Virus record (IMG/VR): IMGVR_UViG_3300025986_000001
Coordinates: 1-64,000 of that record
DNA length: 64,000 nucleotides
From: a virus
Lineage: Duplodnaviria > Caudoviricetes
Direction: 5' to 3' (one strand)
Below are positions 45,548 through 64,000 of the stretch, in pieces (within the stretch, counting starts at the first letter, position 1; every line of letters starts with the position of its first letter). The notes beneath the pieces were generated by a model. The model was not told the DNA's origin. It saw only the letters and a program-made list of their open reading frames with translations, and searched no databases. The translations under genes and the position numbers were made by a program.

Positions 45548-45616
45548 CCGCGGGCAGGTCGCCCGGCGGCGGCACAGGACCGGCGGCATGTCCGGTCCCG
45601 ACCGTCACCCGGGCGG
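45548..45616 (-). repeat. divergent copy of the intergenic hairpin element
   Basis: GTGACGGT-[stem]-GCCGCCG core between a stop codon and an RBS. Confidence 0.5.
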
Positions 45617-45617
45617 C

Positions 45618-45959
45618 TCACAGCCGGTCGACCTCGCCCGACCAGCGCAACAGCGTGGTGCCGATCTGGATGATGTCGCCGGGCATCAGCGTGATGAAGA
45701 TGCCCGGCCCGCATTTGAGTTTCAGGGCGCGCCGATGCACCCGGGTGCCGTTGGTCGAACCCAGGTCGGACAGTTCCGAGATGCCGGGGCACCCGTTGAC
45801 CGGGTTGCGCTGGACCGCGCGGACCACCTTGGCGTGCCGGCTAGATACGCAGGGGTCGCCGGTGATCTGGATGTCGCAGTCGTCGGCCGTCCCGATGACC
45901 ACCTCGTTGCGCGGGCGGTCGGACATGCGGGCCTGCACGCTGATGGACGCGGTTGTCAT
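45618..45959 (-). CDS. FHA domain protein
   Basis: IGT...CDI...VSSRHA...DLGSTNGT...LMPGDIIQIG. Confidence 0.85.
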   Translation of the reverse strand: MTTASISVQARMSDRPRNEVVIGTADDCDIQITGDPCVSSRHAKVVRAVQRNPVNGCPGISELSDLGSTNGTRVHRRALKLKCGPGIFITLMPGDIIQIGTTLLRWSGEVDRL

Positions 45960-46189
45960 GCTCGCTCCTTGATTTTTCCTGAGTGCCCCGGCAAGGGATC
46001 ACTGCGTACTTCGTCGTTGCACCTGACCTCGATGGCGCCGCGGATCACGTGCAGCGGGATCAAGTCACGGCTGGCTTGGCCGTAGTCGACGACCAGCACC
46101 TCACCGTGGACGGCGGCGCTCTGGCACGGTTTCCAGTCAGTCCAGGCCGAAAATTCCATCCAGCGAACCATCAGTGGAAAATCGTTCAT
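45956..46189 (-). CDS. hypothetical protein
   Basis: ATGA overlaps. Confidence 0.5.
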   Translation of the reverse strand: MNDFPLMVRWMEFSAWTDWKPCQSAAVHGEVLVVDYGQASRDLIPLHVIRGAIEVRCNDEVRSDPLPGHSGKIKERA

Positions 46190-46434
46190 CGCCCAAACCC
46201 GTACGTCTTCGGGTCGCAGGCGCGCTGCAACGCCTCCTCGGCCCCCGGGTTGGCGTCGCAGTAGCGCCGCCACGCAGCGGCACTCTCCTCGTCGGCCCAG
46301 GCGTCGTTGCACTGCACCTCGTCGTTGAGGAACCGCTCGTGGCAGCGCAGGGTGCACGGGTCGGCCAGCGGGCAACCGCGGACCTCGGCGCACGCGACGG
46401 CCGGGTCGAACGGTTCGGGCTCGATCATTGTCAT
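46186..46434 (-). CDS. Cys-rich hypothetical protein
   Basis: AAAGGA SD. Confidence 0.5.
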   Translation of the reverse strand: MTMIEPEPFDPAVACAEVRGCPLADPCTLRCHERFLNDEVQCNDAWADEESAAAWRRYCDANPGAEEALQRACDPKTYGFGR

Positions 46435-46447
46435 GAGGGATCCTTTC

Positions 46448-46972
46448 TCAGCCGGCTCGGCCGAGCCGGTGTGCGTTCAGACTGACTACGTTGCTGACCA
46501 ACTGGCCGGTCATCTCATACCGGGTCCAGGCTCTCCGCGTCATCTGGTCATGCCACCGGATGTCGTCGCTGCTCAGCGCGTTCAGCGCCACCAGGTCGGG
46601 GTCGGACACATTGCCGAACCAGCGTGCATATGCCATCAGCGTGCGCTCGCCCTGCTCCTTGGGAGCGCGGCCGTTGGAGGTCATCCGAATGCCGTAGAAG
46701 CGGCGCTCCTTCAGCTCCTTCAGCGCTCGTTTGATCCGGACCTCGCCGTAGGGCCGATAGCCCGAGCTGGTGCGCGCTTCAACGTCGCGGTGAAACTGCA
46801 GCAGCTCGTTGAGGCCCGGTACCTGGAACTCGGGGAAGGTCAGCGCGAGGTCAAGGACGGTGCGCGCCTCCTTGCTGAGCGGCCGAGGGCCGGCTACATC
46901 GCTGAGCGCGGTGGCGAACCAGGGTTCGCCCTGGGGAACGCGAAATTGACCTACCCCTCGGGTGGTCTTCAT
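46448..46972 (-). CDS. RepA-like winged-helix replication initiator (putative)
   Basis: LSKEARTVL...GEVRIKRALKELKERRFY resembles actinobacterial wHTH Rep N-termini; adjacent to an ori-like region. Confidence 0.55.
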   Translation of the reverse strand: MKTTRGVGQFRVPQGEPWFATALSDVAGPRPLSKEARTVLDLALTFPEFQVPGLNELLQFHRDVEARTSSGYRPYGEVRIKRALKELKERRFYGIRMTSNGRAPKEQGERTLMAYARWFGNVSDPDLVALNALSSDDIRWHDQMTRRAWTRYEMTGQLVSNVVSLNAHRLGRAG

Positions 46973-47090
46973 GACGCCACCGTGTTACAGAAGTGGAACA
47001 CGGCCATGATCTCCGGTAGCATGGGGGCTCGATTCGTTTGCCGCAGTCGTAAGAACAAGCTTCCAACTCTTGGCGTGAGCAGGAGCTTTC

Positions 47091-47128
47091 AGAAAACCCG
47101 GGCTGGCAGGCCCGGGTTTTCTGTTTTC
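47091..47128. terminator. intrinsic terminator hairpin
   Basis: AGAAAACCCGGGC-TGGCAG-GCCCGGGTTTTCT followed by GTTTT. Confidence 0.75.
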
Positions 47129-47132
47129 CGAG

Positions 47133-47384
47133 CTAGGCAGCCCGGGACGTATGTGGATCTTGCTGGCGTAGCTCTTGCCGCCTCAACGCCTGGGCTCGAC
47201 GGTTGGTGACGGTCGACGGGATGACGCTGAGGCGCTCCGCGATTGTCGCGATGGGGCCGCCGGTAGAGACCGCGATGTACAGCTCGTCGATCTCGACGTC
47301 GAGACGATCTCGCTCTTCCTGCAGAGCGATCAGGCGCTCAACATTCTCGTCGAAGCCCTCGGGCTTGGGTCGTCGCAATGCCAT
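47133..47384 (-). CDS. small HTH protein
   Basis: PIATIAERLSVIPSTVTNRR. Confidence 0.6.
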   Translation of the reverse strand: MALRRPKPEGFDENVERLIALQEERDRLDVEIDELYIAVSTGGPIATIAERLSVIPSTVTNRRAQALRRQELRQQDPHTSRAA

Positions 47385-47489
47385 GCGAAGGACGATAGCA
47401 GGTCCTACGAGTAGCTCGTAGCGGCTCAAGAAACTCGGCGCGTTGAGCCCGACGTCCGAGCGGCGAATTTCCGCTCGGACAGAAGAGAC

Positions 47490-47970
47490 GAAGTCTCTTA
47501 GGGTTTTGATTTTAAGTTCTTATATAAGTACTTCTTTCTAGTAGGTAGTTGTGGGGATCCGTGCGATACCTTCAATCTGACCTGCGGAAACTCCGTGTTT
47601 GCCCAGGTCAGATTGAAGGTATCGCGACAGCACCTTCCGACCCCTCTGGGTAGGTCTCTACGAGGGACCAGACTTGATCACGTTCCGTCGATGCCAACAG
47701 CTGTCTCACCTGCAGAGATAGATCGTTGAGGGGTTCCGCGAAAAATCCTGGAAAACCACGTGATGGCACTTGCCATCCACCTAGTTTCTAAAAAATCTTG
47801 GGATGGCAAGTGCCATCACGTGGTTTTGCGGAATTACCGAACAACCACTGACCTGCGAAGATGTAATAAACGGAAAACCCCAGCGATGGCAATTGCCATC
47901 CAATAGTTTTCCGTTTTGTCCGATTTAACCCAGCTATGGCAAACGCCATGCAGGGGGTTTTCCGTTTATT
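47490..47970. other. putative plasmid-type replication origin
   Basis: AT-rich tract 47500-47545; inverted repeats of 22, 27 and 17 bp; four ATGGCA-N2-YGCCAT palindromes. Confidence 0.55.
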
Positions 47971-52137: not shown

Positions 52138-52154
52138 GATGCAATCTCCTTCTC

Positions 52155-53430: not shown

Positions 53431-53454
53431 CAGGGATATTTCCTTCCAGCTCGG

Positions 53455-54041: not shown

Positions 54042-54057
54042 GATCTCTCCCGTTTCT

Positions 54058-54120
54058 CCGTCGCCCGTGTGACGGTGGCGACCAGCCGGGTGGACCCCCG
54101 GCCGGTACCATCACTCACGC
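54058..54120 (-). repeat. divergent hairpin element copy
   Basis: CGTGAGTGATGGTA-[stem]-GCCACCG...CACACGG; contains the TGA of the upstream ORF. Confidence 0.7.
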
Positions 54121-54411
54121 GTTCAACGCGGTAACCGCCGCGGCCGCTTCGGCCTTGCAGCCGTGGTCGCTGACCGGATCCCAGAAACCCAGCCGGCAGT
54201 CACCCACCGTCCACAACCCCGGCTCGGATTGCAGGTACGTGTAGCGGAACTCGATGCCATTCAGCTCCCACGCCCGTCGCTTGGCGTCACGCTCGATGTC
54301 GTGGTCACTCTCCGGGACCCACCGGCCGTCGCCGGGGTGGTCGAAGCCGACCGTCCACAGGCGGTCCTCGCCAGCACAGCGGCGCACGTAGAAGCCGTGG
54401 AACTCGGGCAT
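54115..54411 (-). CDS. protein with duplicated LWTVG...W.P.SDH unit
   Basis: LWTVGF..WVPESDH / LWTVGD..WDPVSDH. Confidence 0.6.
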   Translation of the reverse strand: MPEFHGFYVRRCAGEDRLWTVGFDHPGDGRWVPESDHDIERDAKRRAWELNGIEFRYTYLQSEPGLWTVGDCRLGFWDPVSDHGCKAEAAAAVTALNA

Positions 54412-54413
54412 GA

Positions 54414-54788
54414 TCAGCTGGCCCCCGTCTGGTCCTGGAAGAAGTCGTGCGCCTGGAATGCCAGGTAGGTGCCGTCGTCGCGGTAACTGCCCAGCGGCCC
54501 CTCGTAGTCGTAGGGGTGGTTGCCGGCCCGCATGGACAACCCGAATCCGTGCGACTCGCTGCGCCAGCCCAGTTCGGGGTCGTCGTAGCTGAGCGCCAGG
54601 CACTGCCCGACGCTTTCCGGGTGGTAGTGCCGCAGCACCGGGAAGAATCGCCGGATGAACGGCTCGATCAGCTCCTGGGACTGCTCGAAGAGCACAGCGT
54701 GGTCACCGTTGTCGCCCTTGTGCCGGTGGCTGCTGCTCCTGAACTGCTCCACCACCCGGCCGATGTAGTGGTTGCTCGGCTCATCCAT
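54414..54788 (-). CDS. hypothetical protein
   Basis: First gene after the promoter at 54882-54910. Confidence 0.55.
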   Translation of the reverse strand: MDEPSNHYIGRVVEQFRSSSHRHKGDNGDHAVLFEQSQELIEPFIRRFFPVLRHYHPESVGQCLALSYDDPELGWRSESHGFGLSMRAGNHPYDYEGPLGSYRDDGTYLAFQAHDFFQDQTGAS

Positions 54789-54807
54789 GGGGATGTTCTC
54801 GCTCTCT

Positions 54808-54874
54808 CCGGTGCTCGACTCGTGCGCCGGCGGCAGCAACCGGGAACCCCCGGGCATTCCCGTCGCGCGCACGG
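54808..54874 (-). repeat. divergent hairpin element copy at a transcript 5' end
   Basis: 3' arm GCCGCCGGCGCACGA conserved. Confidence 0.5.
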
Positions 54875-54881
54875 TTTCGGC

Positions 54882-54910
54882 AGCGTAACAGCGAGTATGC
54901 GACGCGTCAA
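54882..54910 (-). promoter_or_regulatory. housekeeping-sigma promoter
   Basis: TTGACG-N17-TACGCT. Confidence 0.7.
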
Positions 54911-54918
54911 TCTAGGAT

Positions 54919-54963
54919 AGACACGTAGGGGGCCAGGATTAGGTCCTGGCCCCCTACGTGTCT
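54919..54963. terminator. perfect 20-bp inverted repeat
   Basis: AGACACGTAGGGGGCCAGGA-TTAGG-complement. Confidence 0.8.
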
Positions 54964-55143
54964 GTGCCAACAGTAAATCAGTAGTCGGGATCTCCGGGCC
55001 GCGCCTGATGCCAGCCGCGGTCGATCGGATCGCCCCGTCGCCGGGCGCGCCAGTCCCCGAACAGCGTCCCCGCCACGGCGCCGGACCACATCAGCAGGCC
55101 CATCGCGCTGCCCCACAACAGGTTCGCGATCACCTGTGTCACG

Positions 55144-55545
55144 CTAGCCGATCGCGTCCCGGACCGCCCGGGGCAGCGGGTCCAGCCAGATGTGCCGGTT
55201 GTGGTTCAGCCGGCGGTGCCCCTGGTGCGAGATCGGTTCCTGGTGATGCTCGTGCGAGACCACTTTGAACCCGGAACACAGCGCCGGCACGATCCCCGAT
55301 CCGTCCCACGAGCCGTTGTCGGCGACCCAGCGGATCCGATGCACCTTGTCCATGATCGTGTCTAGCAGGCTGGAGCCGCGCAACACCCGCACCGTCCAGA
55401 TGTCGGCGATCTGCTCGTCGTAGAAGCCGCCCAGGTAGACGGCGATCGACGCGCCTCCGGCCTCCGGCCGGACCCACGCGGCCGCGGACCCGTAGTCGAG
55501 AACCCGGATCCAGTCACTGCTGCCCGGACTCCACCGCCCGCTCAT
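55144..55545 (-). CDS. hypothetical protein
   Basis: ATGA overlap. Confidence 0.5.
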   Translation of the reverse strand: MSGRWSPGSSDWIRVLDYGSAAAWVRPEAGGASIAVYLGGFYDEQIADIWTVRVLRGSSLLDTIMDKVHRIRWVADNGSWDGSGIVPALCSGFKVVSHEHHQEPISHQGHRRLNHNRHIWLDPLPRAVRDAIG

Positions 55546-55805
55546 CGGGCGTTCAGTTTCGCCAGGACCTGCTGGGCGCTCAGCGCCCGCACGTAGTACT
55601 CACGCACCGGTGCGACGCAGTTGTTGACGTAGCGCACCCAGACGATGCCGGTGTCGGAGAAGGAATGCTCGGCCGGCGGCTCGACCACCACGGCGAAGAC
55701 GAACGCCGAGCCCATCTGGACCTCAACGAACGTGCCGGCATCGGGAAGCCCACTCATCGGTTGCTCACCTGTGACCCTTTCTAGCACTTTTACCCGATAC
55801 CGCAC
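55542..55805 (-). CDS. hypothetical protein
   Basis: ORF track; start uncertain. Confidence 0.45.
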   Translation of the reverse strand: MRYRVKVLERVTGEQPMSGLPDAGTFVEVQMGSAFVFAVVVEPPAEHSFSDTGIVWVRYVNNCVAPVREYYVRALSAQQVLAKLNAR

Positions 55806-56086
55806 GGACCGATAAACCCATCCTGCAATCGGGCCGCAGCCGCATCGTCGCGCGCCGCGGACAACTCGTCACCGTCGGCCTCGTCGAGCAGCATGTGGAC
55901 CATCTGGTCGCAGGGCGGCCGCTCGACGCCACGGACCAGGTACCACGACCACACCAGGGCCGGGTCCTGGAAGAAGTCGCCGGCCTGCACGTCGGCGGCG
56001 ATCACCGGATTGTCGAAGCCGATGACGTTCAACCCCTGCTCGGGGTGGAACCGCGCGCAGTCGTCGTCAGCATGATGGGTGCTCAT
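55790..56086 (-). CDS. hypothetical protein
   Basis: MSTHHADD; ATGA overlap. Confidence 0.5.
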   Translation of the reverse strand: MSTHHADDDCARFHPEQGLNVIGFDNPVIAADVQAGDFFQDPALVWSWYLVRGVERPPCDQMVHMLLDEADGDELSAARDDAAAARLQDGFIGPCGIG

Positions 56087-56634
56087 CGGCTGCCCACCCG
56101 CCCGTCCCACTCGATGTCGGCGGCCGTGAACTGCTCGGCCCACTTGCGCACCCCGGCCGTGGTGGGTTCCGGGTCGTAATTCTTCTCGAAATCGTCGGCC
56201 CACCACTCGTTACGGTCCAGGTCGTAAGGGTCGGCGAGGATCAGGTACTCGATCTGCTGCTCGACGACCTGCGCCACGGTGTCACCGGTGACCTCCACGC
56301 CCTCGGCGATGCCGTACCAGGAGTACGTGACCACCGCCCAGGTGCCGTCCGGCAGCACCTGCATGAACCGCCGGCCGTACGCCTCGGTCACCTGCACGTC
56401 GCCGCCGCAGGTGCCGTGCGGTTGCGCACCGACCGGCGCCACCTCCCGCCACCGGCCGTCGGCCAGCGTGACCGCTGGGTGCGCGCTCAACTGCGTCGAC
56501 TCCGCCGGTCGCTCATCGGCGAACCAGCGGCCCCGGCCGCCGTCGGCCAGCGTGACCGCGTGGATAATGCTGCCCGCCTCGACTGTGCCGTAGAAGACCT
56601 CGGCCTTCGGGTCGGTGATTACCCAGGTATCCAT
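56083..56634 (-). CDS. acidic hypothetical protein
   Basis: SD at hairpin foot; internal AVTLADG repeat. Confidence 0.6.
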   Translation of the reverse strand: MDTWVITDPKAEVFYGTVEAGSIIHAVTLADGGRGRWFADERPAESTQLSAHPAVTLADGRWREVAPVGAQPHGTCGGDVQVTEAYGRRFMQVLPDGTWAVVTYSWYGIAEGVEVTGDTVAQVVEQQIEYLILADPYDLDRNEWWADDFEKNYDPEPTTAGVRKWAEQFTAADIEWDGRVGSR

Positions 56635-56649
56635 GTCCCATCCTTCTCT

Positions 56650-56715
56650 CCGTACGCTCCGTGCGCCGGTGGCTGCCCGCCCGGCCGAGCCGGGCGGGCA
56701 CCATCACGCTCACGG
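56650..56715 (-). repeat. intergenic hairpin element
   Basis: CCGTGAGCGTGATGGTG-CCCGCCCGGC TCG GCCGGGCGGG-CAGCCACCGGCGCACGGAGCGTACGG. Confidence 0.9.
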
Positions 56716-56717
56716 CG

Positions 56718-57056
56718 TCAGAAGATGTGCACCTTCTCGACTTTGCGCAGGTCCAGACGTAGGTAGCCGCCGTCAGCCGCGGATGTCTCCCAATCCACGG
56801 TTTCGCCGTGGATCGCGCCCAGCCCGACACCACGCACCCTGATCAGATCGCCCTCACCGGTACCGGGCTCGTCGGCGCGGTCCAGCAGCTCCACCACCCA
56901 GCCGCCCTGGGCGGCCTCATGCAGGATCTCCAGCGCCGCCTCGTCGGCCTCCGGCTGAATCAGCACCGTGTTGATGTCGACCTCACTGATGCCGGCGTTC
57001 TCCAGCAGCCGGTTCATCAGGTGCCCGGCGTCCGTCCCGAAACTCATGTACTGCAT
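56718..57056 (-). CDS. hypothetical protein (single-gene cassette)
   Basis: Flanked by two elements. Confidence 0.65.
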   Translation of the reverse strand: MQYMSFGTDAGHLMNRLLENAGISEVDINTVLIQPEADEAALEILHEAAQGGWVVELLDRADEPGTGEGDLIRVRGVGLGAIHGETVDWETSAADGGYLRLDLRKVEKVHIF

Positions 57057-57075
57057 GATCTTTTCTCCCTCATCT

Positions 57076-57146
57076 CCGTGCGCCGCACTCGTGCGCCGGC
57101 GGCCACGACCGAAGAGTGCCTCTTCGGTCGCACCGTCACGCTCACG
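57076..57146 (-). repeat. intergenic hairpin element with unrelated apical stem
   Basis: CGTGAGCGTGACGGTG-CGACCGAAGAG GCA CTCTTCGGTCG-TGGCCGCCGGCGCACG. Confidence 0.9.
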
Positions 57147-57399
57147 AACGATGCTGCGCCAGTATCTGTCTGCCCAGCCTGGTCGGCTCGCACAGCCGGC
57201 TGGGCGGCACCCGCGACCAGCCGCTGACGTCGACCAGCCGGACGAGCTGCTTGGTGCGCAACAACTGCACCGCCATACTGACGTCCGGGCTGCCGGGCTG
57301 CAGCTTCTTGAACTTCCCCCGGGTGTGCAGGATCTTTCCCGCGGCCACCTCGCGCAGCAACTGCAGCTCCTCGGGTGTCAGTTCCCATTCGTCCGGCAT
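57142..57399 (-). CDS. small wHTH-like protein
   Basis: LTPEELQLL...EPTRLGRQIL; stop codon lies inside the element. Confidence 0.55.
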   Translation of the reverse strand: MPDEWELTPEELQLLREVAAGKILHTRGKFKKLQPGSPDVSMAVQLLRTKQLVRLVDVSGWSRVPPSRLCEPTRLGRQILAQHRS

Positions 57400-57409
57400 G
57401 TCCCCCCCC

Positions 57410-57652
57410 TCAGTGGTTGCAGACGTGCTGGCGATAGCGGGGCGCACCCGACGGGATGCCGGACGCGGCGTCGCCGTCATCGGCAACGCCGTACAGCGCC
57501 AGCACGAACTCACCGACGGGAATGTCCAGCGGATCCCCGCGCAGCACCAGCTCGCCATCGTCGCACGGCAGCGGGTCGATCCGGATCGGATTCCCGTCGA
57601 GCTCGTACACCAGAACGGACGGTTGTCCGCAGGTTACGCAGGTATCACTCAT
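57410..57652 (-). CDS. Zn-finger protein
   Basis: CVTCG...YRQHVC. Confidence 0.55.
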   Translation of the reverse strand: MSDTCVTCGQPSVLVYELDGNPIRIDPLPCDDGELVLRGDPLDIPVGEFVLALYGVADDGDAASGIPSGAPRYRQHVCNH

Positions 57653-57939
57653 CGGTCACCCCCGGCACTTTCCAGCGCCTGCGATTCACTGATCTCGGTG
57701 ATGTGTCGCGGAGACGCCCAGCCGCCGCCGGTCAGGAACAGCCACCTGCCCCAGCCGGCGTAGCGCGTGCCGATCTCGTACTTCGAGCGCAAGAGGTCCG
57801 TGCCCGTGATCCGGGCGACGTACGGCGGTTTCGGCTTGCGATAGGCGTTCGCCGACCAGGTCTTCGACTCGTCCACGATCACGTAGGTGCCCACGGCCAG
57901 CATCGGGCTGCCGTCACTCATCGTCTCCATGCTCACCAC
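57649..57939 (-). CDS. hypothetical protein
   Basis: Coupled ORF. Confidence 0.5.
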   Translation of the reverse strand: MVSMETMSDGSPMLAVGTYVIVDESKTWSANAYRKPKPPYVARITGTDLLRSKYEIGTRYAGWGRWLFLTGGGWASPRHITEISESQALESAGGDR

Positions 57940-58253
57940 GCCCGCCCGCGACCCATGATTCCCAGGACGATCATTCGCGCGTCGACCGTGGAGACGCCCA
58001 GGTGTTCGTTGACCTGATCGACGCGCACCTGCGCCTTGGTGTAAGCCGGGCCGAAGAACGCGGCCACCTCCCGGCGCGCCGACTCCGGGAACCGGTAGAA
58101 ACCGTTGTCGCCTTCGACGTTCATCACCGGCAGGTAGTTCTCGCCGTACAGCATCGTCGGATCGACATGCAGCACGACCCGGTTGTCGCCGTTGAACTGC
58201 GACAGCAGCCCGACGGCGGTCAGCAGCTCAACGGGGATCTGCTCGTTCATCAC
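57933..58253 (-). CDS. hypothetical protein
   Basis: SD at hairpin foot. Confidence 0.55.
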   Translation of the reverse strand: MMNEQIPVELLTAVGLLSQFNGDNRVVLHVDPTMLYGENYLPVMNVEGDNGFYRFPESARREVAAFFGPAYTKAQVRVDQVNEHLGVSTVDARMIVLGIMGRGRAW

Positions 58254-58265
58254 TCATCCTCATCT

Positions 58266-58332
58266 CCGCACGCACCGTGCGCCGGCGGCCACCGGCCGGA
58301 GCTCGCCCCGGCCGGCACCGTCACGCTCACGG
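58266..58332 (-). repeat. intergenic hairpin element
   Basis: Near-identical to the 59495 copy. Confidence 0.9.
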
Positions 58333-58333
58333 T

Positions 58334-58669
58334 TCAGTCGCCCCAGTTGATCGACCCGAGGGCCGTGATCTTCGCGATGTCGGCGTGGACGGTCACCGTC
58401 AGCTCCGATCCCGCGATTGCGCGATGTTTCTCTGGATCCTGCTGGACGGCCAGCAGCGCGCACCGGACACACTCCATCGCGTAGAAGCGCCCCATCCGGC
58501 GCTGGGAATTGTCCCCCAGATTCGGCGTGTCGTCGCTGCACTTGCCGGGCCATCCGCCGGTGTGCTCGGCGAACATCGACTCCAGCAGCCCGCGCTCCAG
58601 CGCCTGCGCCACCGTCATCGTCCACGCGATCCTCGCCCCGACGCCAGGGTGATCGACGTGCGCGCTCAT
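58334..58669 (-). CDS. hypothetical protein
   Basis: EH..CSD...C.RC.LL pattern; ATGA overlap. Confidence 0.55.
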   Translation of the reverse strand: MSAHVDHPGVGARIAWTMTVAQALERGLLESMFAEHTGGWPGKCSDDTPNLGDNSQRRMGRFYAMECVRCALLAVQQDPEKHRAIAGSELTVTVHADIAKITALGSINWGD

Positions 58670-59010
58670 CGCCGCACCACCGCGTACGCAACGCCAGGGT
58701 CATGCACCTGGTCGTCCCAGGCGTGATCACCCACGCCGGGCGTCGCTCCGACGATCACGCCGGTGCCGTCGGAGTTCAGCGGCCAGTCCTCGTGCGGGTT
58801 GCCGAACTCGCACTCGGTGGCCGCGTACTCCAGGTAGTCGACCGTCTCGGTGGCTTCCCCGATCGTCCACTCCGGGTGCCGCTCCTCCTGCTGCCAGCGG
58901 GCCAGCTTCAGCCATGCCCACGCCTGCCGGGCGTCGCCGAAGCTCGGTTCGTCGCCGCGCACAGCCGGCTGCGGCCGGTCGTTGGGGTAGACCAAGGCGA
59001 AGAACGTCAC
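58666..59010 (-). CDS. hypothetical protein
   Basis: GTGA overlap. Confidence 0.55.
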   Translation of the reverse strand: MTFFALVYPNDRPQPAVRGDEPSFGDARQAWAWLKLARWQQEERHPEWTIGEATETVDYLEYAATECEFGNPHEDWPLNSDGTGVIVGATPGVGDHAWDDQVHDPGVAYAVVRR

Positions 59011-59480
59011 TTGCTGATCCCCCTCAACGCGATCCACTCGGCCGCCGTCGCGTTCAACGCGTACGCATGCTTCCAGACCTCGGCCTCGCCGGGCGTGCCT
59101 ACGGAGTCCGGCCGTGCGGCCAGCATCCTGCGCGCCCAGTCCAGGTCTTTGTCGTCGGGTTCGGTGAGCACCAGGCTGTAGCAGATCTGCGCCCAGTCGA
59201 TGCTGTCCTCGTCGAGGGTGAAGTTCTGGAAGAGGCCGTAGACCGCGGCGGCGGCGCTGCCGGGACGGTTGTGCCAGTCGTCGGCCAGGATGTGCAGCAG
59301 CCGCAGCGCCAGCCGTTCCGGGCCGTTATGGACCGCGTAGTGCCGCGCCATCTTGATGTACTCGGCGTCGTTGTTGATCCACAGCCCGATCTGCATCGTC
59401 GCCGCGTTGTTGTAGCCGTCGAAATCGCCGGTCAGCTCCAGCGGCACACCGTCACAGCCGCCGCGAAGATTGATCTCCAT
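59007..59480 (-). CDS. conserved phage early protein
   Basis: GYNN.AT....LWINND..Y ... IDW.QI pattern. Confidence 0.6.
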   Translation of the reverse strand: MEINLRGGCDGVPLELTGDFDGYNNAATMQIGLWINNDAEYIKMARHYAVHNGPERLALRLLHILADDWHNRPGSAAAAVYGLFQNFTLDEDSIDWAQICYSLVLTEPDDKDLDWARRMLAARPDSVGTPGEAEVWKHAYALNATAAEWIALRGISK

Positions 59481-59494
59481 GGTTTTGCCTTTCC

Positions 59495-59560
59495 CCGCAC
59501 GCACCGTGCGCCGGCGGCCACCGGCCGGGGCTCGCCCCGGCCGGCACCGTCACGCTCACG
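59495..59560 (-). repeat. intergenic hairpin element
   Basis: CGTGAGCGTGACGGTG-CCGGCCGGGG CGAG CCCCGGCCGG-TGGCCGCCGGCGCACGGTGCGTGCGG. Confidence 0.9.
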
Positions 59561-59822
59561 CCGCCACTTGCACCATCACAAGATCTTTCTCGTGATACAG
59601 CAGGAAGGTAGGCCCTTCGACGGGGGACATCACCTCCACTCGGACTCCCCCGGCGTAACTGGCCGGCTTCGCGGGCTCCTCGACCAGGAATGGGTAGCGC
59701 CACAGGCGAATCTCGTCATTCTCGATCCTTCCCCACACCAGCATTCCGTCGATCAGATTCCTTGCCACCACCGCGATCAGCGGCGGTAGCCGATCGCCGG
59801 CCTTCTCGACCTGATCCATCAC
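59556..59822 (-). CDS. hypothetical protein
   Basis: Stop codon lies inside the element. Confidence 0.55.
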   Translation of the reverse strand: MMDQVEKAGDRLPPLIAVVARNLIDGMLVWGRIENDEIRLWRYPFLVEEPAKPASYAGGVRVEVMSPVEGPTFLLYHEKDLVMVQVAA

Positions 59823-60148
59823 GCCGCCCCATCGATGCGGTAGTAGGCGAACTCCTCGTGCCCGTCCGGGAACGTGACGGTCACCTTCGGGTGCGCGAAG
59901 TAGTTCTCGTCGTACTCGCGGGCACCCTCCACCCGGAAGGTGCAGTCGGCCAGCCTGCCGTTCGGGCCGATCGCCTGAACCTGATCGATCTCGATCTCGA
60001 CCCCGCCGTAGCTGCGCTGCTCCAGCAGCGTGGCCAGGCGGACTACCGTGTCGGTGTCCGGGATGACACGGCCGTCGTAGCGGACCACCATGACCAGTTC
60101 GGTCGGCCCGTCGACCGCCGGGTCGTACTCCCGCGCCGTCGCCTTCAC
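59819..60148 (-). CDS. hypothetical protein
   Basis: GAGGAG SD; GTG at 60148. Confidence 0.6.
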   Translation of the reverse strand: MKATAREYDPAVDGPTELVMVVRYDGRVIPDTDTVVRLATLLEQRSYGGVEIEIDQVQAIGPNGRLADCTFRVEGAREYDENYFAHPKVTVTFPDGHEEFAYYRIDGAA

Positions 60149-60163
60149 GATCTCCTCATCTCT

Positions 60164-60227
60164 CCGTACGCCTCGTGCGCCGGTGGCCGGCCGCCGGGCG
60201 AACCCGGCGGCCACCATCACGCTCACG
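60164..60227 (-). repeat. intergenic hairpin element (UUCG loop)
   Basis: CGTGAGCGTGATGGTG-GCCGCCGGG TTCG CCCGGCGGC-CGGCCACCGGCGCACGAGGCGTACGG. Confidence 0.9.
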
Positions 60228-60506
60228 ACTCGATTCGGGTCTCAGAGCTGCCAGTGGTGACGCTGCTGCGCCACCTGACGGTTGTAGGTCAAGCTTCCCG
60301 GCCGCAGGTAGTCAGCCTGCCGCCGCCTGCGGCCGATGTCTGCACTTCTGCGGGAATCGGCCACCCATATCAGCGGATACACGACCAGAATGTCGCGTAG
60401 CCGCAGCCTCCTGCGCATCCGCACCCTCCCGTTCCGCCCGGATCCGGAGCCCGAGCATGGATGCCGGTCGACCGGCGGCGGCGCATCGAGGACTTACAGG
60501 CGATCA

Positions 60507-60821
60507 TCATCGGTTCAGATACAGCTGCCCGTCCGCGGTGAACTCCCGCTCGTTGGCCAGCGCATCAGCTTCGGCCCGCTCTGGGCTGGTCAGATACGCC
60601 AGCCGGGCACGCCCGCACCCGCGCGCCACGTCGATGGCTGCCAGCACGGCGCTCCGGATGGCGGCGACCGCGGGCAGCAGTACCGGTGCGTCCTCGGTGG
60701 TCTCCGCCTCGACGGAGGTCTGCTTGTGCCACCGGCTGGCGTGCAGCTCCACTTCCGGCGGTAGCTCGTCGCCCAGCCGGTAGGTCCTGCTTTCCATCAT
60801 GCCCAGCCCCCTTTGTCTCAC
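60507..60821 (-). CDS. hypothetical protein
   Basis: Coupled ORF; start may be near 60800. Confidence 0.5.
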   Translation of the reverse strand: MRQRGLGMMESRTYRLGDELPPEVELHASRWHKQTSVEAETTEDAPVLLPAVAAIRSAVLAAIDVARGCGRARLAYLTSPERAEADALANEREFTADGQLYLNR

Positions 60822-61225
60822 CAGTCGCGGCGGATCCGGATCGTGCAGTTGTCGAGCACCACACCGGCCCAGTCGCCGCGCAGGTCGCCCGCGTAGCGTG
60901 TCCAGTCGACGTAGTCGCCGACGTTGTCCGGCCCGATGCCGTGCTCCTGCTCGGCCTCGTAGCGGACGAACCGCTCGAAGTTGTCCTCGGCCACGAAGGT
61001 CAGACTGTCGTCGCAGCAGTCGAACCCCCGGTTCACATCGGCGACGAACGCGCGCAGCAGGCGCAGCTCCAGTGCCAGGTCGGCCTCCAGGTCACGGCCG
61101 TCGGCCTCGTACTCGTCGCGCCGCTCCAGCAGTTCGTCGATGCGCTCCAGCAGTTCGTCGATCTTCAGACGCCCCGTGTCCTCGTCGGCGTAGCTGTCGA
61201 GGTCGACCGTCGTCGTCATCGGCAT
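60818..61225 (-). CDS. ArdA-like acidic anti-restriction protein
   Basis: FERFVRYEAE...DYVDWTRYAGDLRGDW; very acidic. Confidence 0.55.
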   Translation of the reverse strand: MPMTTTVDLDSYADEDTGRLKIDELLERIDELLERRDEYEADGRDLEADLALELRLLRAFVADVNRGFDCCDDSLTFVAEDNFERFVRYEAEQEHGIGPDNVGDYVDWTRYAGDLRGDWAGVVLDNCTIRIRRDW

Positions 61226-61242
61226 GGTCTTGACTCCGTTCC

Positions 61243-61308
61243 CCGTACGCACCGTGCGCCGGTGGCCGGCCGCCGGGGCGAACCCGGCGGCCACCATCAC
61301 ACTCACGG
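61243..61308 (-). repeat. intergenic hairpin element (UUCG loop)
   Basis: Closest to the 60164 copy. Confidence 0.9.
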
Positions 61309-61311
61309 AAC

Positions 61312-61470
61312 TCAGTACTCCAGCTCGGCCAGCACGGCGCCGTCGGCCAGGATCTGACGGGTGCATTCCTCGCAGGTCACCTTGCTGGTATCCCGGCTGG
61401 ACGGACCAGCCTGGGCGCACCAGTTCCCGTGGTCCTCGGGCCGCTTGAAGTGCACATCGGCTGCGCTCAC
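61312..61470 (-). CDS. small Zn-finger protein (52 aa)
   Basis: Own translation: VHF...WC...VTCEEC; GTGA overlap. Confidence 0.5.
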   Translation of the reverse strand: MSAADVHFKRPEDHGNWCAQAGPSSRDTSKVTCEECTRQILADGAVLAELEY

Positions 61471-61649
61471 CCGATCGCCACCGCCTCACTCTCGTCGGTG
61501 CCTTCGACGGCGAAGACATACCCGCCGCCGCTGGCGTCACTGTCCGCGCCGTTGATGTTGCCACTTTCGAAGCTGCGCCGGATCTCGTCCAGCGCGCACT
61601 CCAGGTCCAGTATCGTGCGGCCCTCGATCCGTACCCGCATGTTCAGCAT
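61467..61649 (-). CDS. small acidic protein
   Basis: AGGAG SD. Confidence 0.55.
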   Translation of the reverse strand: MLNMRVRIEGRTILDLECALDEIRRSFESGNINGADSDASGGGYVFAVEGTDESEAVAIG

Positions 61650-61668
61650 GATCTTCTCCTGGTTCCCA

Positions 61669-61730
61669 GCGCCTCGTGCGCCGGCGGCAGCTCGCCCGAC
61701 CGTAGCCGGGCAAGCACCGTCGGCGCACGA
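61669..61730 (-). repeat. divergent hairpin element (cUACGg loop)
   Basis: TCGTGCGCCGACGGTG-CTTGCCCGGC TACG GTCGGGCGAG-CTGCCGCCGGCGCACGAGGCGC. Confidence 0.8.
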
Positions 61731-61731
61731 C

Positions 61732-62124
61732 TCAGGCCCGAACCCAGACCAGGTCGTCGCCGAAGTCGAGTCGGCGGTAGTCCGCCTTCAGGCTGTCCGC
61801 GAACTTGTCCCACTTGACGAACGGAACCAGGAAGTTGATGTCGGCCAGCGCCGCCTCCTCGGCGTATTCACGGGCGTAGTCCTCGAACTGCTCGTCCGGC
61901 ACGATCGTGGCCGTGTCGAAGTCGGCGCCGGTGGCCTGCTCGACCTCGGCGCGGAACGCGATCAGCTCGTCATACTCCTGAACGTCCTCGTCGAACGGTT
62001 CGTCACCGTCCTGCTGGGCTTCCCGGATCGTTTTCTTCAGGTACTCGATCCGCTCGTTGACGTCGGCCGGGAAGATCCCGGTCTGGCCGGTGGTGGTGAA
62101 GTCGTCGGCGGCGATGTACGCCAT
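61732..62124 (-). CDS. ArdA-like acidic anti-restriction protein
   Basis: FEDYAREYAEE...FVKWDKFADSLKADY..LDFG. Confidence 0.6.
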   Translation of the reverse strand: MAYIAADDFTTTGQTGIFPADVNERIEYLKKTIREAQQDGDEPFDEDVQEYDELIAFRAEVEQATGADFDTATIVPDEQFEDYAREYAEEAALADINFLVPFVKWDKFADSLKADYRRLDFGDDLVWVRA

Positions 62125-62224
62125 GATGATCTCGCTTTCAGGTGGGGTTGTTGCCCTGCTCAAGGCAACGTATCAGTCAGGTACGACAGCCTGGCACGCC
62201 GGGCTAGACACTATCGGGGCGGGC

Positions 62225-62434
62225 TTAGTTGCTCCAGGCCCGTTCGTAGCCGAACAGCTTGGCAACGCGGTCGGCCTGAGCAACGAGAATCTCGTGGAAC
62301 TGCTCATCGGTCAGGCCGAGTTCCTCGGCAACGCGGCCGTCCTGCTCCGACCAGTAGCCGAGCACGTTGCCCAAGCCGTGCATGAGCATCTCCTGCGCTT
62401 TCTGTTTCGCCTCGACCTTAGCCATCGAGGCCAC
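62225..62434 (-). CDS. small hypothetical protein
   Basis: QADRVAKLFGY; overlaps the upstream stop. Confidence 0.55.
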   Translation of the reverse strand: MASMAKVEAKQKAQEMLMHGLGNVLGYWSEQDGRVAEELGLTDEQFHEILVAQADRVAKLFGYERAWSN

Positions 62435-62804
62435 CCAGAAGCTCTCGGAGGGCGGCAGTGTTTTCCTGGCACTGGTCGAACAGATCCGGCAGCACCGCAG
62501 TGGCTAGGTAGCGAGCCTCAGTGTCCGGCTCATTCAGACCTGACTCGACCGCCCATAGCTCGGTTGTGGCGTTGCTTTGGTTGTTGCCCACGGTCATCCG
62601 CAGGCCGATGTAACGCCAGTCGCGCGCCTCGAACCCGGCGATGTCCGCCGGCCCGTAGCAGTCGAAATCCCCCGGGACGGTTACGTGGTCGGGCAGCACT
62701 TCCAGGCCGATCGCGACGTTACCCACCTGCGCGGTGAGCACCCGATGCCCGTCGACCACACCCCTGGCCAACTGGCTGAGTGCAGCCCCCAGTTTTTCAT
62801 TCAC
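62418..62804 (-). CDS. hypothetical protein
   Basis: DWRYIG...LWAVE; SD at hairpin foot. Confidence 0.6.
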   Translation of the reverse strand: MNEKLGAALSQLARGVVDGHRVLTAQVGNVAIGLEVLPDHVTVPGDFDCYGPADIAGFEARDWRYIGLRMTVGNNQSNATTELWAVESGLNEPDTEARYLATAVLPDLFDQCQENTAALRELLGGLDG

Positions 62805-62821
62805 GATGATCTCCCTATTCT

Positions 62822-62885
62822 CCGTGCGCACCGTGCGCCGGTGGCGTCCCGCCGGGCGTACCCGGCGAGCACCATCACGCTCACG
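62822..62885 (-). repeat. intergenic hairpin element (UACG loop)
   Basis: CGTGAGCGTGATGGTGCTCGCCGGG TACG CCCGGCGGGACGCCACCGGCGCACGGTGCGCACGG. Confidence 0.92.
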
Positions 62886-63141
62886 ACCTGCGCAGAGGTT
62901 CGATAAGCATCTGTCGCTCGTCGAACGACAGGACGCCGTCGCCGTGGTGCTTCTCCTGCATGTGCTGCACCCACCGGTAAATCAAGGCGTCGTGGGCCTC
63001 GGCCGATCCGTCGCGGCTGCGCTCCAGTTCCTGATGCTCCGAACACAGCAGGATCCAGATGTCCTGTCGGCTGTCGTAGTCCAGACAGCCGATCACATCA
63101 TCGTCCTCGACCTCTTCGGTCGGGTCGTACTCGATACCCAT
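62881..63141 (-). CDS. hypothetical protein (single-gene cassette)
   Basis: MGIEYDP; stop codon lies inside the element. Confidence 0.6.
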   Translation of the reverse strand: MGIEYDPTEEVEDDDVIGCLDYDSRQDIWILLCSEHQELERSRDGSAEAHDALIYRWVQHMQEKHHGDGVLSFDERQMLIEPLRRS

Positions 63142-63156
63142 TGCCTGTCCCTCTCC

Positions 63157-63221
63157 CCGTGCGCACCGTGCGCCGGTGGCGTCCCGCCGGGCGTACCCGG
63201 CGAGCACCATCACGCCCACGG
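63157..63221 (-). repeat. intergenic hairpin element (UACG loop)
   Basis: One substitution relative to the 62822 copy. Confidence 0.92.
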
Positions 63222-63223
63222 TC

Positions 63224-63520
63224 TCAGTACTGCTCGCCTATCTGCTCCAAGGCGGCCGTCAGCTTCAGCACCAGCCAGTCTCCCTCGACGTCGGCCGGGA
63301 CGACCTGAACCAGCAGCCGTACCGCTTCGCTCAGCTCGTCCCAGCGGGGGATCTGGGTGCTCACACCAGGCCCAGCGCTCCAGATGGCGCGCTTGCCTCG
63401 CAGCACCTGCCACAGGACGGTGTCACCGTCCGATCCGCTGCGGTGACCGTAGCGGATCCCGTCCGCCGTGGGGAATCGTCGCCGGACCAGCGCGGCAAGC
63501 TTGCTTGCCGCCGACATCAT
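63224..63520 (-). CDS. hypothetical protein
   Basis: ATGA overlap. Confidence 0.5.
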   Translation of the reverse strand: MMSAASKLAALVRRRFPTADGIRYGHRSGSDGDTVLWQVLRGKRAIWSAGPGVSTQIPRWDELSEAVRLLVQVVPADVEGDWLVLKLTAALEQIGEQY

Positions 63521-63969
63521 GCGTTCACCCACTCGCGCTTGCGGCAGAAGTCCCCGCAGTCCTCGTGACCCTGCGGGTCGTCCGGGTTGCAGCCGGCCCC
63601 CCACAGGGCGTGCCGAGTCTGGGCGCGCTCGAAGATTTCCCGCGCCTCGCCGACACTGCCGACCTTGCTGACCGAGACCTGCCCGGTGCTGGCTGTCCAG
63701 ACCAGGTAGTTACCCGCCGGGACGATCACCTCGCGCTCGTCGGCCTCGTCGGTCTGCCCGAGCCCGAAGACCTCGTCGGCGTAGACGATCACCACCGTAA
63801 GGTGGCCCTCGAAGTCGGTGTCACCGCACGAGTCCTCCGTTTGGTCGAGACTCCACGTGTACAGCGCCTCGTCGACGCAGCTGCCGAACTTGCCCAGGTG
63901 CCCCGGGCATTCGTACGGTTGCTCGTCGTCGCCGCGCTGCACGAACCGGCTGTTGCACTTCGGCAACAT
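63517..63969 (-). CDS. acidic hypothetical protein
   Basis: AGGAG SD. Confidence 0.6.
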   Translation of the reverse strand: MLPKCNSRFVQRGDDEQPYECPGHLGKFGSCVDEALYTWSLDQTEDSCGDTDFEGHLTVVIVYADEVFGLGQTDEADEREVIVPAGNYLVWTASTGQVSVSKVGSVGEAREIFERAQTRHALWGAGCNPDDPQGHEDCGDFCRKREWVNA

Positions 63970-63985
63970 GATCACTCCTACTTCT

Positions 63986-64000
63986 CCGTACGCACCGTGC
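63986..64000 (-). repeat. hairpin element truncated by the window end
   Basis: CCGTACGCACCGTGC = conserved 3' arm. Confidence 0.75.

What the first reader, a model, noticed from the sequence alone, without database searches (positions are those of the whole stretch)
45548..64000. Array of small early genes punctuated by a conserved, covarying ~65-nt hairpin element
Seen: 8 full copies (56650, 57076, 58266, 59495, 60164, 61243, 62822, 63157), one truncated copy (63986) and 4 divergent copies (45548, 54058, 54808, 61669), all in the mRNA-sense (-) orientation. Consensus: CCGUGAGCGUGAYGGUG-[9-11 bp variable stem + 3-4 nt loop]-NNGCCRCCGGCGCACGRNGCGYRCGG. The outer arms are conserved while the apical stem changes sequence completely yet stays paired (e.g. 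CGACCGAAGAG/CUCUUCGGUCG versus CCCGCCCGGC/GCCGGGCGGG). Loops are often UACG or UUCG. AUGGUG/CACCG and ACGGUG/CGCCG alternate, each keeping one G-U pair, so the (-) strand is the one that folds. The start codon follows 14-20 nt after each copy, with the SD at the hairpin foot, and the central copies delimit cassettes of 1-3 genes. Inference: a structured RNA (or ssDNA) control element that makes each accessory cassette separately processable or translatable. Known analogues are T7 early RNase III sites and plasmid CUP repeats, but I recognise no described motif with this sequence.
Basis: partly seen in the sequence, partly recalled or inferred. Interest (0 to 1): 0.92.

Follow-up and report, generated by a model that had tools for sequence, protein, structure and literature searches.

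The report
Repeated intergenic RNA hairpin bounding phage gene cassettes
An uncultivated high-GC phage puts the same ~80-base, evolutionarily maintained RNA hairpin between nearly all of its small unknown-function genes, and related phages carry the same hairpins around differently ordered genes, so it looks like a new structured RNA that also marks where gene cassettes are swapped.

Summary
All 13 copies in the window are real. The window is the first 64 kb of a 130.8-kb uncultivated virus record, which holds 35 sense-strand copies. Thirty-three of them fill the gaps of a 20-kb gene array at 54.05-74.11 kb. A pattern scan of metagenomes found about 255 more copies on 30 contigs from six metagenome assemblies.

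The fold is strongly supported. Of the paired cells, 95-98% form standard pairs, and 14-15 of 22 pairs show compensatory changes. G·U pairs outnumber A·C by 483 to 6, so the sense strand folds. UNCG and GNRA make up 61% of the tetraloops, which points to RNA. Rfam has no matching family.

Each copy sits as stop codon, hairpin, conserved 9-nt tail, Shine-Dalgarno, start. I found no sigma-70-like promoter, no U-tract terminator, no phage RNase III or T7-type RNA polymerase, and no integron-type integrase.

Between related contigs the genes between hairpins are reordered, inserted and deleted. In the one contig pair examined in detail, the breakpoints lie in or beside the hairpins.

Best reading: an intercistronic RNA element of a polycistronic operon, probably early, that acts in processing, stabilisation or translation insulation in the manner of T7 RNase III sites. 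Its conserved arms also serve as recombination linkers, as PeSLs do in T4-type phages. The function is inferred; no RNA data could be obtained.

The parts
54051..64000 (-). Window part of the cassette array (the whole array is genome 54,051-74,114). Small ORFan genes, each group of 1-3 (rarely up to 5) separated by one hairpin element.
   Evidence: The 30 array proteins tested have no Pfam hit and few are paralogous.
63980..64000 (-). 3' end of a copy cut by the window end (full copy at genome 63980-64062)
   Evidence: (window 14.9 bits truncated; L001:1-62, 37.1 bits)
63151..63228 (-). Full hairpin element
   Evidence: 82.4 bits
62816..62893 (-). Full hairpin element, 97% identical to the neighbouring copy at 63151
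   Evidence: 81.8 bits; family D2
61659..61737 (-). Hairpin element with a variant basal helix and tail
   Evidence: 70.4 bits
61237..61315 (-). Full hairpin element
   Evidence: 79.4 bits
60158..60235 (-). Full hairpin element
   Evidence: 83.9 bits
59489..59568 (-). Full hairpin element, 97% identical to the copy at 58260
   Evidence: 75.2 bits; family D4
58260..58339 (-). Full hairpin element
   Evidence: 86.5 bits; fold -43.4 kcal/mol
57074..57154 (-). Full hairpin element whose apical stem has a completely different sequence (CGACCGAAGAG/CUCUUCGGUCG)
   Evidence: 62.7 bits
56644..56722 (-). Full hairpin element
   Evidence: 84.4 bits; fold -50.8 kcal/mol, z -4.2
54805..54881 (-). Divergent copy
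   Evidence: 47.0 bits
54051..54129 (-). Divergent copy, the last of the dense array
   Evidence: 63.6 bits
45544..45623 (-). Outlying divergent copy 8.4 kb downstream of the array
   Evidence: 36.5 bits, E 4.6e-7

Best explanation
The element is a structured RNA carried in the sense strand of a long polycistronic transcript of small accessory genes. That these genes are early is inferred. It is one irregular hairpin of about 26 stacked positions.

The lower stem is sequence-conserved: CCGUG/CACGG, an A·G mismatch, GC/GC, a bulged G, UG/CG with a fixed U·G, an A·C mismatch, and UGGU/GCCA with a second fixed U·G. A 1x2 internal loop follows. The upper stem is free in sequence but fixed in length (9-12 bp, mode 10) and is usually capped by a UNCG or GNRA tetraloop. 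The upstream gene's UGA lies in or against the 5' foot. After the 3' foot come a conserved tail (GUGCG..CGG), a purine-rich Shine-Dalgarno stretch and the next start codon.

Most likely mechanism (inferred, not shown): a double-strand-specific endoribonuclease, probably host RNase III, cuts once at the irregular middle of the helix, as at the T7 sites. The upstream message would be left with a protective 3' hairpin. The downstream message would get a short defined leader with an open ribosome-binding site, so each cassette is expressed independently of its neighbours.

The same about 45 conserved bases at every junction also serve as portable homology. Recombination between copies inserts, deletes and reorders hairpin-bounded cassettes among related phages.

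The confidence of 0.5 is for this whole statement. That it is a real sense-strand RNA structure I put at about 0.85; the RNase III step alone at about 0.35-0.4.
For: Structure. On a MAFFT alignment of 29 copies, 95.3% of cells are paired and 15 of 22 pairs have double changes; 0 of 500 shuffles reach this, and slid controls pair at 27-58%. On 150 metagenomic copies, 98.0% are paired and 14 of 22 pairs have double changes.

Strand. G·U/U·G outnumber A·C/C·A by 483 to 6, and by 87 to 2 on the unfitted alignment. The model scores 60-87 bits on the sense strand and about 20 on the antisense.

RNA rather than DNA. Of 158 tetraloops, 96 are UNCG or GNRA; composition predicts about 5%.

Coupling to genes. 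The core-to-start distance has a median of 25 nt with a tight mode at 24-28. Upstream stops fall at 0, +1, -6 or -12 nt from the hairpin foot in 165 of 262 cases.

Orientation follows the gene, including the single (+) copy.

Not a transcription unit. The array has no sigma-70-like promoter, and no U-tract terminator on the sense (-) strand; the 5 terminator-like sites lie on (+), against a shuffle mean of 3.

Geometry. The helix length and irregularities fit the about 22-bp RNase III substrate, where loops and mismatches give a single cut and a 3' stabilising hairpin (PMC3867540).

Shuffling. The downstream neighbour across an element is the same in only 19 of 199 ortholog pairs. Between contigs L220 and L225, block ends and extra cassettes coincide with elements; one element in one contig corresponds to element-cassette-element in the other. 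Genes between copies are mostly unrelated, so the repeats are not by-products of gene duplication.
Against: The phage encodes no RNase III or dsRBD, so a host enzyme has to be assumed, and the host is unknown. The lower stem is far more conserved than an RNase III substrate needs: four pairs are invariant in 150 copies and both wobbles hold in 147 of 150. That points at least as much to a sequence-specific binding protein. Folding energy alone does not separate the strands. 'Early' expression is inferred only from position next to a 1.7-kb non-coding region between divergent arms. The recombination role rests on comparative breakpoints. It cannot tell homologous from site-specific exchange, and adjacency without an intervening element is also poorly conserved (16 of 95).
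Confidence: 0.5

Rival explanations
1. The hairpin is the operator for a dedicated RNA-binding protein, phage-encoded or host. The protein recognises the conserved, irregular lower stem and sets translation, timing or shut-off of all array genes together. This would resemble the T4 RegA/RegB regulons or an MS2 coat-protein operator, and needs no RNase III.
For: The lower stem is nearly invariant in sequence, including two fixed wobbles, two fixed mismatches and one bulge, across about 290 copies in several phages, while the upper stem varies freely. The upper-stem length is fixed, as if measured. The distance to the start codon is fixed. A conserved, basic 145-aa protein of unknown family is the first gene ahead of the first element in all four arrays whose head was captured.
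Against: No candidate protein has any recognisable RNA-binding domain. The array and flank proteins tested gave no family with a known function. Conserved sequence could also come from concerted evolution among the repeats. Nothing ties the first-gene protein to the element except its position.
Confidence: 0.25
2. The element is an attC-like recombination site. The sense strand folds as single-stranded DNA on the lagging-strand template, and a tyrosine recombinase exchanges cassettes at a fixed point, making the array a phage-borne integron analogue.
For: The architecture resembles attC: conserved paired boxes with bulged and mismatched bases, a variable terminal stem-loop and strand specificity. 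Cassettes appear promoterless, all point one way downstream of one control region, and the upstream stop codon lies in the first box. Cassette-plus-one-element indels and a different order in every contig are seen. The apical stem travels slightly more often with the upstream gene (9% against a 2.5% background). The genome has one Xer-like tyrosine recombinase. If the origin lies in the 74.6-76.3 kb gap, the sense strand would be the lagging-strand template.
Against: The recombinase scores 50.8 bits on the integron-integrase model, whose cut-off is 265. It scores higher on XerC/D models and lies about 7.7 kb beyond the array head, across the non-coding gap. There are no R-box GTTRRRY motifs. 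The enrichment for UNCG and GNRA loops is an RNA signature. The tight spacing to the Shine-Dalgarno and start has no role in an attC model. In the two junctions inspected, the crossover positions differ, as expected for homologous exchange.
Confidence: 0.08
3. The element is a selfish miniature palindromic repeat of the REP/BIME or MITE type. It spread through permissive intergenic sites and has no function for the phage.
For: Copy number is high. Neighbouring copies are often 97% identical. It is an imperfect palindrome in intergenic DNA and is orientation-specific, as REPs are.
Against: No Y1/RAYT transposase is present. The position relative to stop and start codons is fixed to within a few bases in hundreds of copies. 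Purifying selection acts on pairing through compensatory changes and on RNA-type tetraloops. The copies are confined to one gene array rather than scattered, and no flanking target duplications were seen.
Confidence: 0.05
4. The element is a PeSL-like transcription cassette: a terminator hairpin plus a promoter, so that each cassette is its own transcription unit.
For: It has the same genomic role as PeSLs, flanking ORFans in a hyperplastic region with shuffling at the repeats (PMC2839356).
Against: There is no sigma-70-like promoter and no sense-strand hairpin-plus-U-tract site in the 10-kb array. Only about 24 purine-rich nucleotides separate the hairpin from the start codon. A transcription start inside the element would remove the 5' arm, yet its pairing is maintained by covariation (U-A to C-G, 133:16). 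No T7-type phage RNA polymerase domain was found, although that search's control was silent.
Confidence: 0.03

Closest known systems
T7 RNase III processing sites (R0.3, R0.5, R1, R1.1, R1.3 and others)
   Same: Related hairpins repeated between cistrons of a phage polycistronic transcript. Each has an upper stem, an irregular middle and a lower stem of about two helical turns. The sites are similar to one another in sequence. The expected outcome is a 3' hairpin on the upstream message and a short leader on the downstream one (general features from PMC3867540; T7 details from my own knowledge).
   Different: There are 35 copies per genome instead of about 10. The sequence is unrelated and GC-rich, in an actinophage. 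The lower stem is much more strictly conserved. No cleavage has been shown, and the role as a cassette boundary is not a T7 feature.
PeSL (promoter-early stem-loop) cassettes of T4-type phages RB49 and phi1 (PMC2839356)
   Same: Both are repeats of about 70-100 bp that fill the space from the upstream stop to the downstream start. Both end in a Shine-Dalgarno, flank ORFans in a hyperplastic region and lie at the insertion, deletion and replacement boundaries between related phages.
   Different: PeSLs are a sigma-70 promoter plus a terminator. This element has neither. It is instead a long covarying RNA hairpin that must be transcribed through.
SAS/ESAS (start-associated sequences) of cluster K mycobacteriophages (PMC3203893)
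   Same: Both are asymmetric repeats in actinophages, in one orientation, immediately upstream of the start codons of non-structural genes. The upstream stop is sometimes inside the repeat. ESAS sites are inverted repeats with a variable spacer.
   Different: The SAS consensus is absent here. The authors found no support for RNA pairing of the ESAS arms and favoured DNA binding. Here pairing is strongly supported by covariation, the variable part is itself a stem, and the copy number is higher.
Integron attC sites
   Same: Both are strand-specific folded sites with conserved boxes, unpaired bases and a variable terminal structure at the junctions of apparently promoterless cassettes that all point one way. 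Cassette content and order vary between relatives.
   Different: No IntI-type integrase is present and there is no GTTRRRY box. The loop signature is of RNA type, and the spacing to the translation start is fixed.
REP/BIME extragenic palindromes of bacteria
   Same: Both are abundant intergenic imperfect palindromes, transcribed within operons, that can act as 3' mRNA stabilisers.
   Different: REP elements are chromosomal, about 35 nt long, and linked to RAYT transposases, which are absent here. They have no fixed relation to the next start codon.

Membership tests
Any Rfam family | Covariance-model score at or above the gathering threshold | tested here: not met
   There are 0 hits in the window at gathering thresholds. 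At E<=1 the only hit is a chance microRNA-precursor match, 29 bits against a cut-off of 79.
T7-type RNase III processing site | Irregular hairpin of about two helical turns with an internal loop or mismatches | tested here: met
   13 lower-stem pairs with 2 mismatches and 1 bulge, a 1x2 loop, and a 9-12 bp upper stem
T7-type RNase III processing site | Lies between cistrons of one polycistronic transcript | tested here: inconclusive
   The intercistronic position is shown. No promoter or sense-strand terminator lies within the array. The transcript itself was not observed.
T7-type RNase III processing site | Cleaved by RNase III | not testable with these tools
   This needs an in vitro cleavage assay or end mapping in wild type versus an rnc mutant. 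The phage itself has no RNase III or dsRBD.
PeSL regulatory cassette | Contains a strong sigma-70-like early promoter | tested here: not met
   0 promoter-like sites in 54000-64000
PeSL regulatory cassette | The stem-loop acts as a terminator | tested here: not met
   No sense-strand hairpin-plus-U-run site was found. The hairpin is followed by GUGCG..GGAGA. Terminator function itself was not assayed.
PeSL regulatory cassette | Flanks ORFans and coincides with indel and replacement boundaries between related phages | tested here: met
Integron (attC plus IntI) | Integron-type tyrosine integrase next to the array | tested here: not met
   The only tyrosine recombinase (genome 81779-82867) scores 50.8 bits on TIGR02249, whose cut-off is 265. 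It scores higher on XerC/D models and lies about 7.7 kb beyond the array head.
Integron (attC plus IntI) | R''/R' boxes with the GTTRRRY core | tested here: not met
   The consensus arms are CCGUGAGCGUGAUGGUG and GCCACCGGCGCACGG.
Integron (attC plus IntI) | Folded single strand with extrahelical bases and a variable terminal structure; one-way, apparently promoterless cassettes | tested here: inconclusive
   The shape is analogous, but UNCG and GNRA loops point to RNA. Folding as DNA was not testable.
Cluster K SAS/ESAS | 13-bp SAS GGGATAGGAGCCC 3-7 bp before the start codon | tested here: not met
   0 matches with up to 2 mismatches
REP/RAYT | Associated Y1 (RAYT/TnpA) transposase | tested here: not met
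   PF01797 is absent from the 130.8-kb record. The host genome is unknown.

The most novel reading that the evidence does not exclude
The hairpins are the recombination sites of a phage-borne, integron-like cassette system. The sense strand would fold as single-stranded DNA during replication. A Xer-like recombinase, or an unrecognised enzyme, would then capture, excise and reorder cassettes. The same sequence would double as an RNA expression module.
Probability: 0.08. Interest if true: 0.92.

Novelty: new variant of a known kind. Interest (0 to 1): 0.72.

Why it matters
This would be one of the most abundant structured-RNA motifs known per kilobase in a phage: one copy about every 600 bp over 20 kb, and 40 copies on one 19.9-kb metagenome contig. 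Covariation support comes from about 290 natural variants, and Rfam has no entry for it.

It offers a compact natural 'insulator' that joins a stop codon, a stabilising or processing hairpin and a ribosome-binding site. That is directly testable in actinomycete expression systems.

It also ties an RNA-level expression module to genome plasticity. The same junction that makes a gene independently expressible makes it exchangeable. This would extend the PeSL idea from T4-type coliphages to high-GC actinophages by a different molecular route, and gives a concrete handle on how phage ORFan arrays turn over.

Tried and rejected
- Megablast of 54-64 kb against the phage and plasmid collections found no match.
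- tblastn of the 973-aa protein found no match.
- The nearest isolate by Pol III alpha is Saccharomonospora phage PIS 136 at 51% identity. It lacks the element (best 14 bits) and has no comparable dispersed repeat family.
- Pattern scans of IMG/VR and of one-genome-per-species bacteria gave only single chance hits, scoring at most 33 bits with the model. Close relatives of the record may have been withheld from those collections.
- Protein-based search of viral contigs gave only relatives at 50% identity or less.
- Trans-acting antisense RNA is rejected: every match to the reverse complement of either arm is just the opposite strand of an element.
- A self-cleaving ribozyme is unlikely: the element is a single unbranched hairpin and no ribozyme family hits at E<=1.
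- Origin by gene duplication is rejected, since there are few paralogues.
- The apparent in-frame read-through of the element at 64787-64871 was an artefact of an over-long wrong-frame ORF.
- The conserved head-of-array protein was looked up in the ESM Atlas with no usable lead.
- The 3' arm plus tail can refold as a CACCG-GCGCA-CGGUG mini-hairpin in 181 of 264 copies. The bases are too conserved to test by covariation, so this is kept only as a speculative 5'-end stabiliser after cleavage.
- Near-identical copies of this phage in other samples (99.97-100%) gave no informative microvariation in the elements.

Full report
**What the window is.** The window is bases 1-64000 of a single 130,757-bp virus record with 67.5% G+C. 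IMG/VR classes it as linear, and CheckV estimates it 93% complete. The record encodes DnaB, a DnaE-type Pol III alpha, pectate-lyase-like tail spikes, one Xer-like tyrosine recombinase and an HTH_31/DUF5753 regulator. The nearest isolate by Pol III alpha is Saccharomonospora phage PIS 136, at 51% identity, followed by Streptomyces phages. The host is therefore probably an actinomycete; this is inferred. Genes run leftward from about 74.6 kb and rightward from about 76.3 kb. Between them lies a 1.7-kb AT-rich non-coding gap.

It finds 35 sense-strand copies in the whole record. Thirty-three of these lie between 54,051 and 74,114. One outlier lies at 45.5 kb. One copy lies on the (+) strand at 104.83 kb, immediately upstream of a (+) strand gene. 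The opposite strand of the same sites scores only about 20 bits.

**The fold.** RNAalifold on the unfitted MAFFT alignment gives one long hairpin.
- The lower stem runs CCGUG/CACGG, an A·G mismatch, GC/GC, a bulged G, UG/CG, an A·C mismatch, then UGGU/GCCA.
- A 1x2 internal loop follows.
- The upper stem is 9-12 bp (mode 10) and varies in sequence.

On the 29 genomic copies, 95.3% of cells are paired and 15 of 22 pairs carry changes on both sides. No shuffle out of 500 reaches these values, and sliding the partner by 1-3 columns drops pairing to 27-58%. On 150 metagenomic copies, 98.0% are paired and 14 of 22 pairs show double changes; that alignment is fitted to the model, so it leans towards the structure. 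One lower-stem pair switches U-A to C-G (22:7 in the genome, 133:16 in metagenomes). Two U·G wobbles are kept in 147 of 150 copies.

**Which strand folds, and as what molecule.** G·U/U·G cells outnumber A·C/C·A cells by 483 to 6. The ratio is 154 to 4 in the upper stem alone and 87 to 2 on the unfitted alignment. The sense strand is therefore the one under selection to pair; folding energy alone does not distinguish the strands. Of 158 tetraloops, 51 are UNCG and 45 are GNRA, together 61%. Base composition predicts roughly 5%. These loop classes are stabilising in RNA specifically, so I take the functional form to be RNA. I put this at about 0.85; it is an inference.

**Relation to genes.**
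- Every copy is followed by a purine-rich stretch and a start codon. The distance from the end of the 14-nt core to the start has a median of 25 nt, with most values at 24-28.
- A 9-nt tail after the hairpin (GUGCG..CGG) is itself conserved.
- The upstream stop codon sits at 0, +1, -6 or -12 nt from the first base of the hairpin in 165 of 262 cases. The 5' arm reads UGA-CCG-UGA-GCG-UGA-UGG, so the element supplies in-frame UGAs.
- The intergenic space therefore consists of the element and nothing else.
- The 10-kb array in the window contains no sigma-70-like promoter, and its sense strand has no hairpin-plus-U-run terminator.
- The 30 array proteins tested have no Pfam family, and few are paralogous.

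**The family is not confined to this record.** Scans of IMG/VR and of bacterial genomes gave only chance single hits. A stricter two-part pattern in JGI and NCBI metagenome contigs returned 36 loci from 30 contigs, with up to 12 exact matches each. The contigs come from six assemblies: Ga0307508, Ga0126306, Ga0115847, Ga0070679, WUUC01 and JACCDR01. The model finds 255 copies in these 159 kb, always on a single strand per locus. One 19.9-kb contig carries 40 copies by a separate nhmmer profile search. The phage itself recurs at 99.97-100% identity in at least four further metagenome assemblies: three JGI samples and one ENA assembly. Rfam 15 has no matching family. Full-text searches found no description of it. 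The scan's own index has no look-alike on other DNA.

**Cassette behaviour.** I clustered the ORFs between elements into families. Related contigs share many families, at 65-85% nucleotide identity to the reference, but in different orders.
- Family F4 has a different neighbour on both sides in each of its eight occurrences.
- Across an element, the downstream neighbour is the same in only 19 of 199 ortholog pairs.
- The head of the array (family F28) and the downstream block (F6-F23-F10-F26) are conserved.
- Adjacency without an intervening element is also low (16 of 95). That figure is depressed by spurious ORF calls, so the contrast is modest.

A direct comparison of contigs L220 and L225 is clearer. 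Homology blocks begin and end in or within about 25 nt of elements, and neighbouring blocks overlap by exactly one element. L225 carries extra cassettes where L220 has a single element, which is the pattern element-cassette-element against element. In one junction the hairpin stayed with the upstream gene. In another the junction looks chimeric further 5'. This fits homologous exchange at variable points better than a fixed crossover, but two cases do not settle it. Overall, the apical stem travels slightly more often with the upstream gene (9% against a 2.5% background).

**Mechanism.** Shown: a conserved sense-strand fold at every cistron junction, an RNA-type loop signature, fixed geometry relative to stop and start codons, no promoter or terminator consensus, and cassette breakpoints at the elements. 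Inferred: the array is read through as one transcript from the 74.6-76.3 kb control region, and the hairpin acts on that RNA.

The helix length and its built-in irregularities match what is described for bacterial RNase III substrates. There, loops and mismatches restrict cutting to one strand and leave a 3' stabilising hairpin (PMC3867540). T7 uses such sites in this way (my own knowledge). The phage has no RNase III or dsRBD of its own, so a host enzyme would be needed.

After a cut on the 3' side of the internal loop, the 3' arm plus tail could refold as a small 5'-terminal hairpin, CACCG-GCGCA-CGGUG. This is possible in 181 of 264 copies but is speculative.

The strict conservation of the lower-stem sequence is the main reason to keep a dedicated binding protein as a strong rival. 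The recombination role probably follows from having about 45 conserved bases at each junction, as proposed for PeSLs (PMC2839356).

**Comparison with known systems.**
- It works like T7 RNase III sites and like PeSLs, but it is a member of neither.
- It has no promoter or terminator, no SAS consensus, no IntI-type integrase and no RAYT transposase.
- It resembles cluster K ESAS sites in placement. It differs in having clear pairing covariation, which those authors did not find (PMC3203893).
- An attC-like ssDNA role is not excluded, but the loop signature and the translation-linked spacing make it unlikely.

**Verdict.** This is a real, abundant structured RNA motif that I found described neither in Rfam nor in the papers searched. 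Its most probable roles are of known kinds, so I rate it a new variant of a known kind. The function is still untested.

Noticed in passing
L001:10600-12250 (genome about 74.6-76.3 kb, outside the window): A 1.7-kb AT-rich non-coding gap lies between the leftward array and the rightward arm. It holds two copies of a ~75-nt repeat (GGG.CAGCGTTCAGG..CCCGCCCCCGGAACGGTCCCGCA.GGATCGGCGCTAG.AGATAGCTAGGGGACA) on the (-) strand, near L001 10700-10790 and 11020-11100. This is a candidate control region, promoter pair or origin. The simple scan found no sigma-70 consensus.
   Followed up: partly
L003:832-909 (+) (genome 104,832-104,909): A single copy of the element on the opposite strand, directly after the Pol III alpha gene and before the next (+) gene. 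It shows that orientation follows the gene.
   Followed up: partly
window 47752-47902 (+): Three copies of a 28-nt repeat containing the palindrome GATGGCA.(N)TGCCATC, spaced 40 and 83 bp apart, inside the only lower-GC stretch of the window (46-48 kb, 60% GC). They look like iterons or operators (family D10).
   Followed up: no
window 49269-49514 (+ coordinates; gene on -): Tandem-like 33-41-nt repeats (..TCGCCGTTGTAG..) inside the 246-aa gene at 49253-49993, a family conserved downstream of the array. The protein is probably internally repetitive (families D7, D8, D20).
   Followed up: no
L005:10865-11150 (genome 64,865-65,150): The gene after the element at 65164-65240 starts in one frame (MNNPLPVIIELTADSDDYD...). 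Its homology to relatives (family F31, 65098-64865) continues in another frame. This may be a frameshift or an assembly error.
   Followed up: partly
L247:2332-3019 versus window about 56001: A contig from another sample is 100% identical to the window from 58331 down to 56001. It then has no detectable match anywhere in the record, and the break is inside a gene, not at an element. This could be a strain variant or a chimeric assembly.
   Followed up: no
L001:10113-10592 (-) (genome 74,113-74,592): A basic protein of about 145 aa with no known family is the first gene ahead of the first hairpin in all four arrays whose head was captured (G000, L227, L231, L238). The copies appear roughly 50-60% identical by eye. 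No Pfam scan was run on it; NCBIfam, PHROG and Atlas look-ups gave no lead.
   Followed up: partly
genome 72,005-72,262 and 70,555-70,982: Pairs of elements lie very close together, enclosing only a 30-aa ORF or a 90-aa ORF. These may be near-empty cassettes.
   Followed up: no
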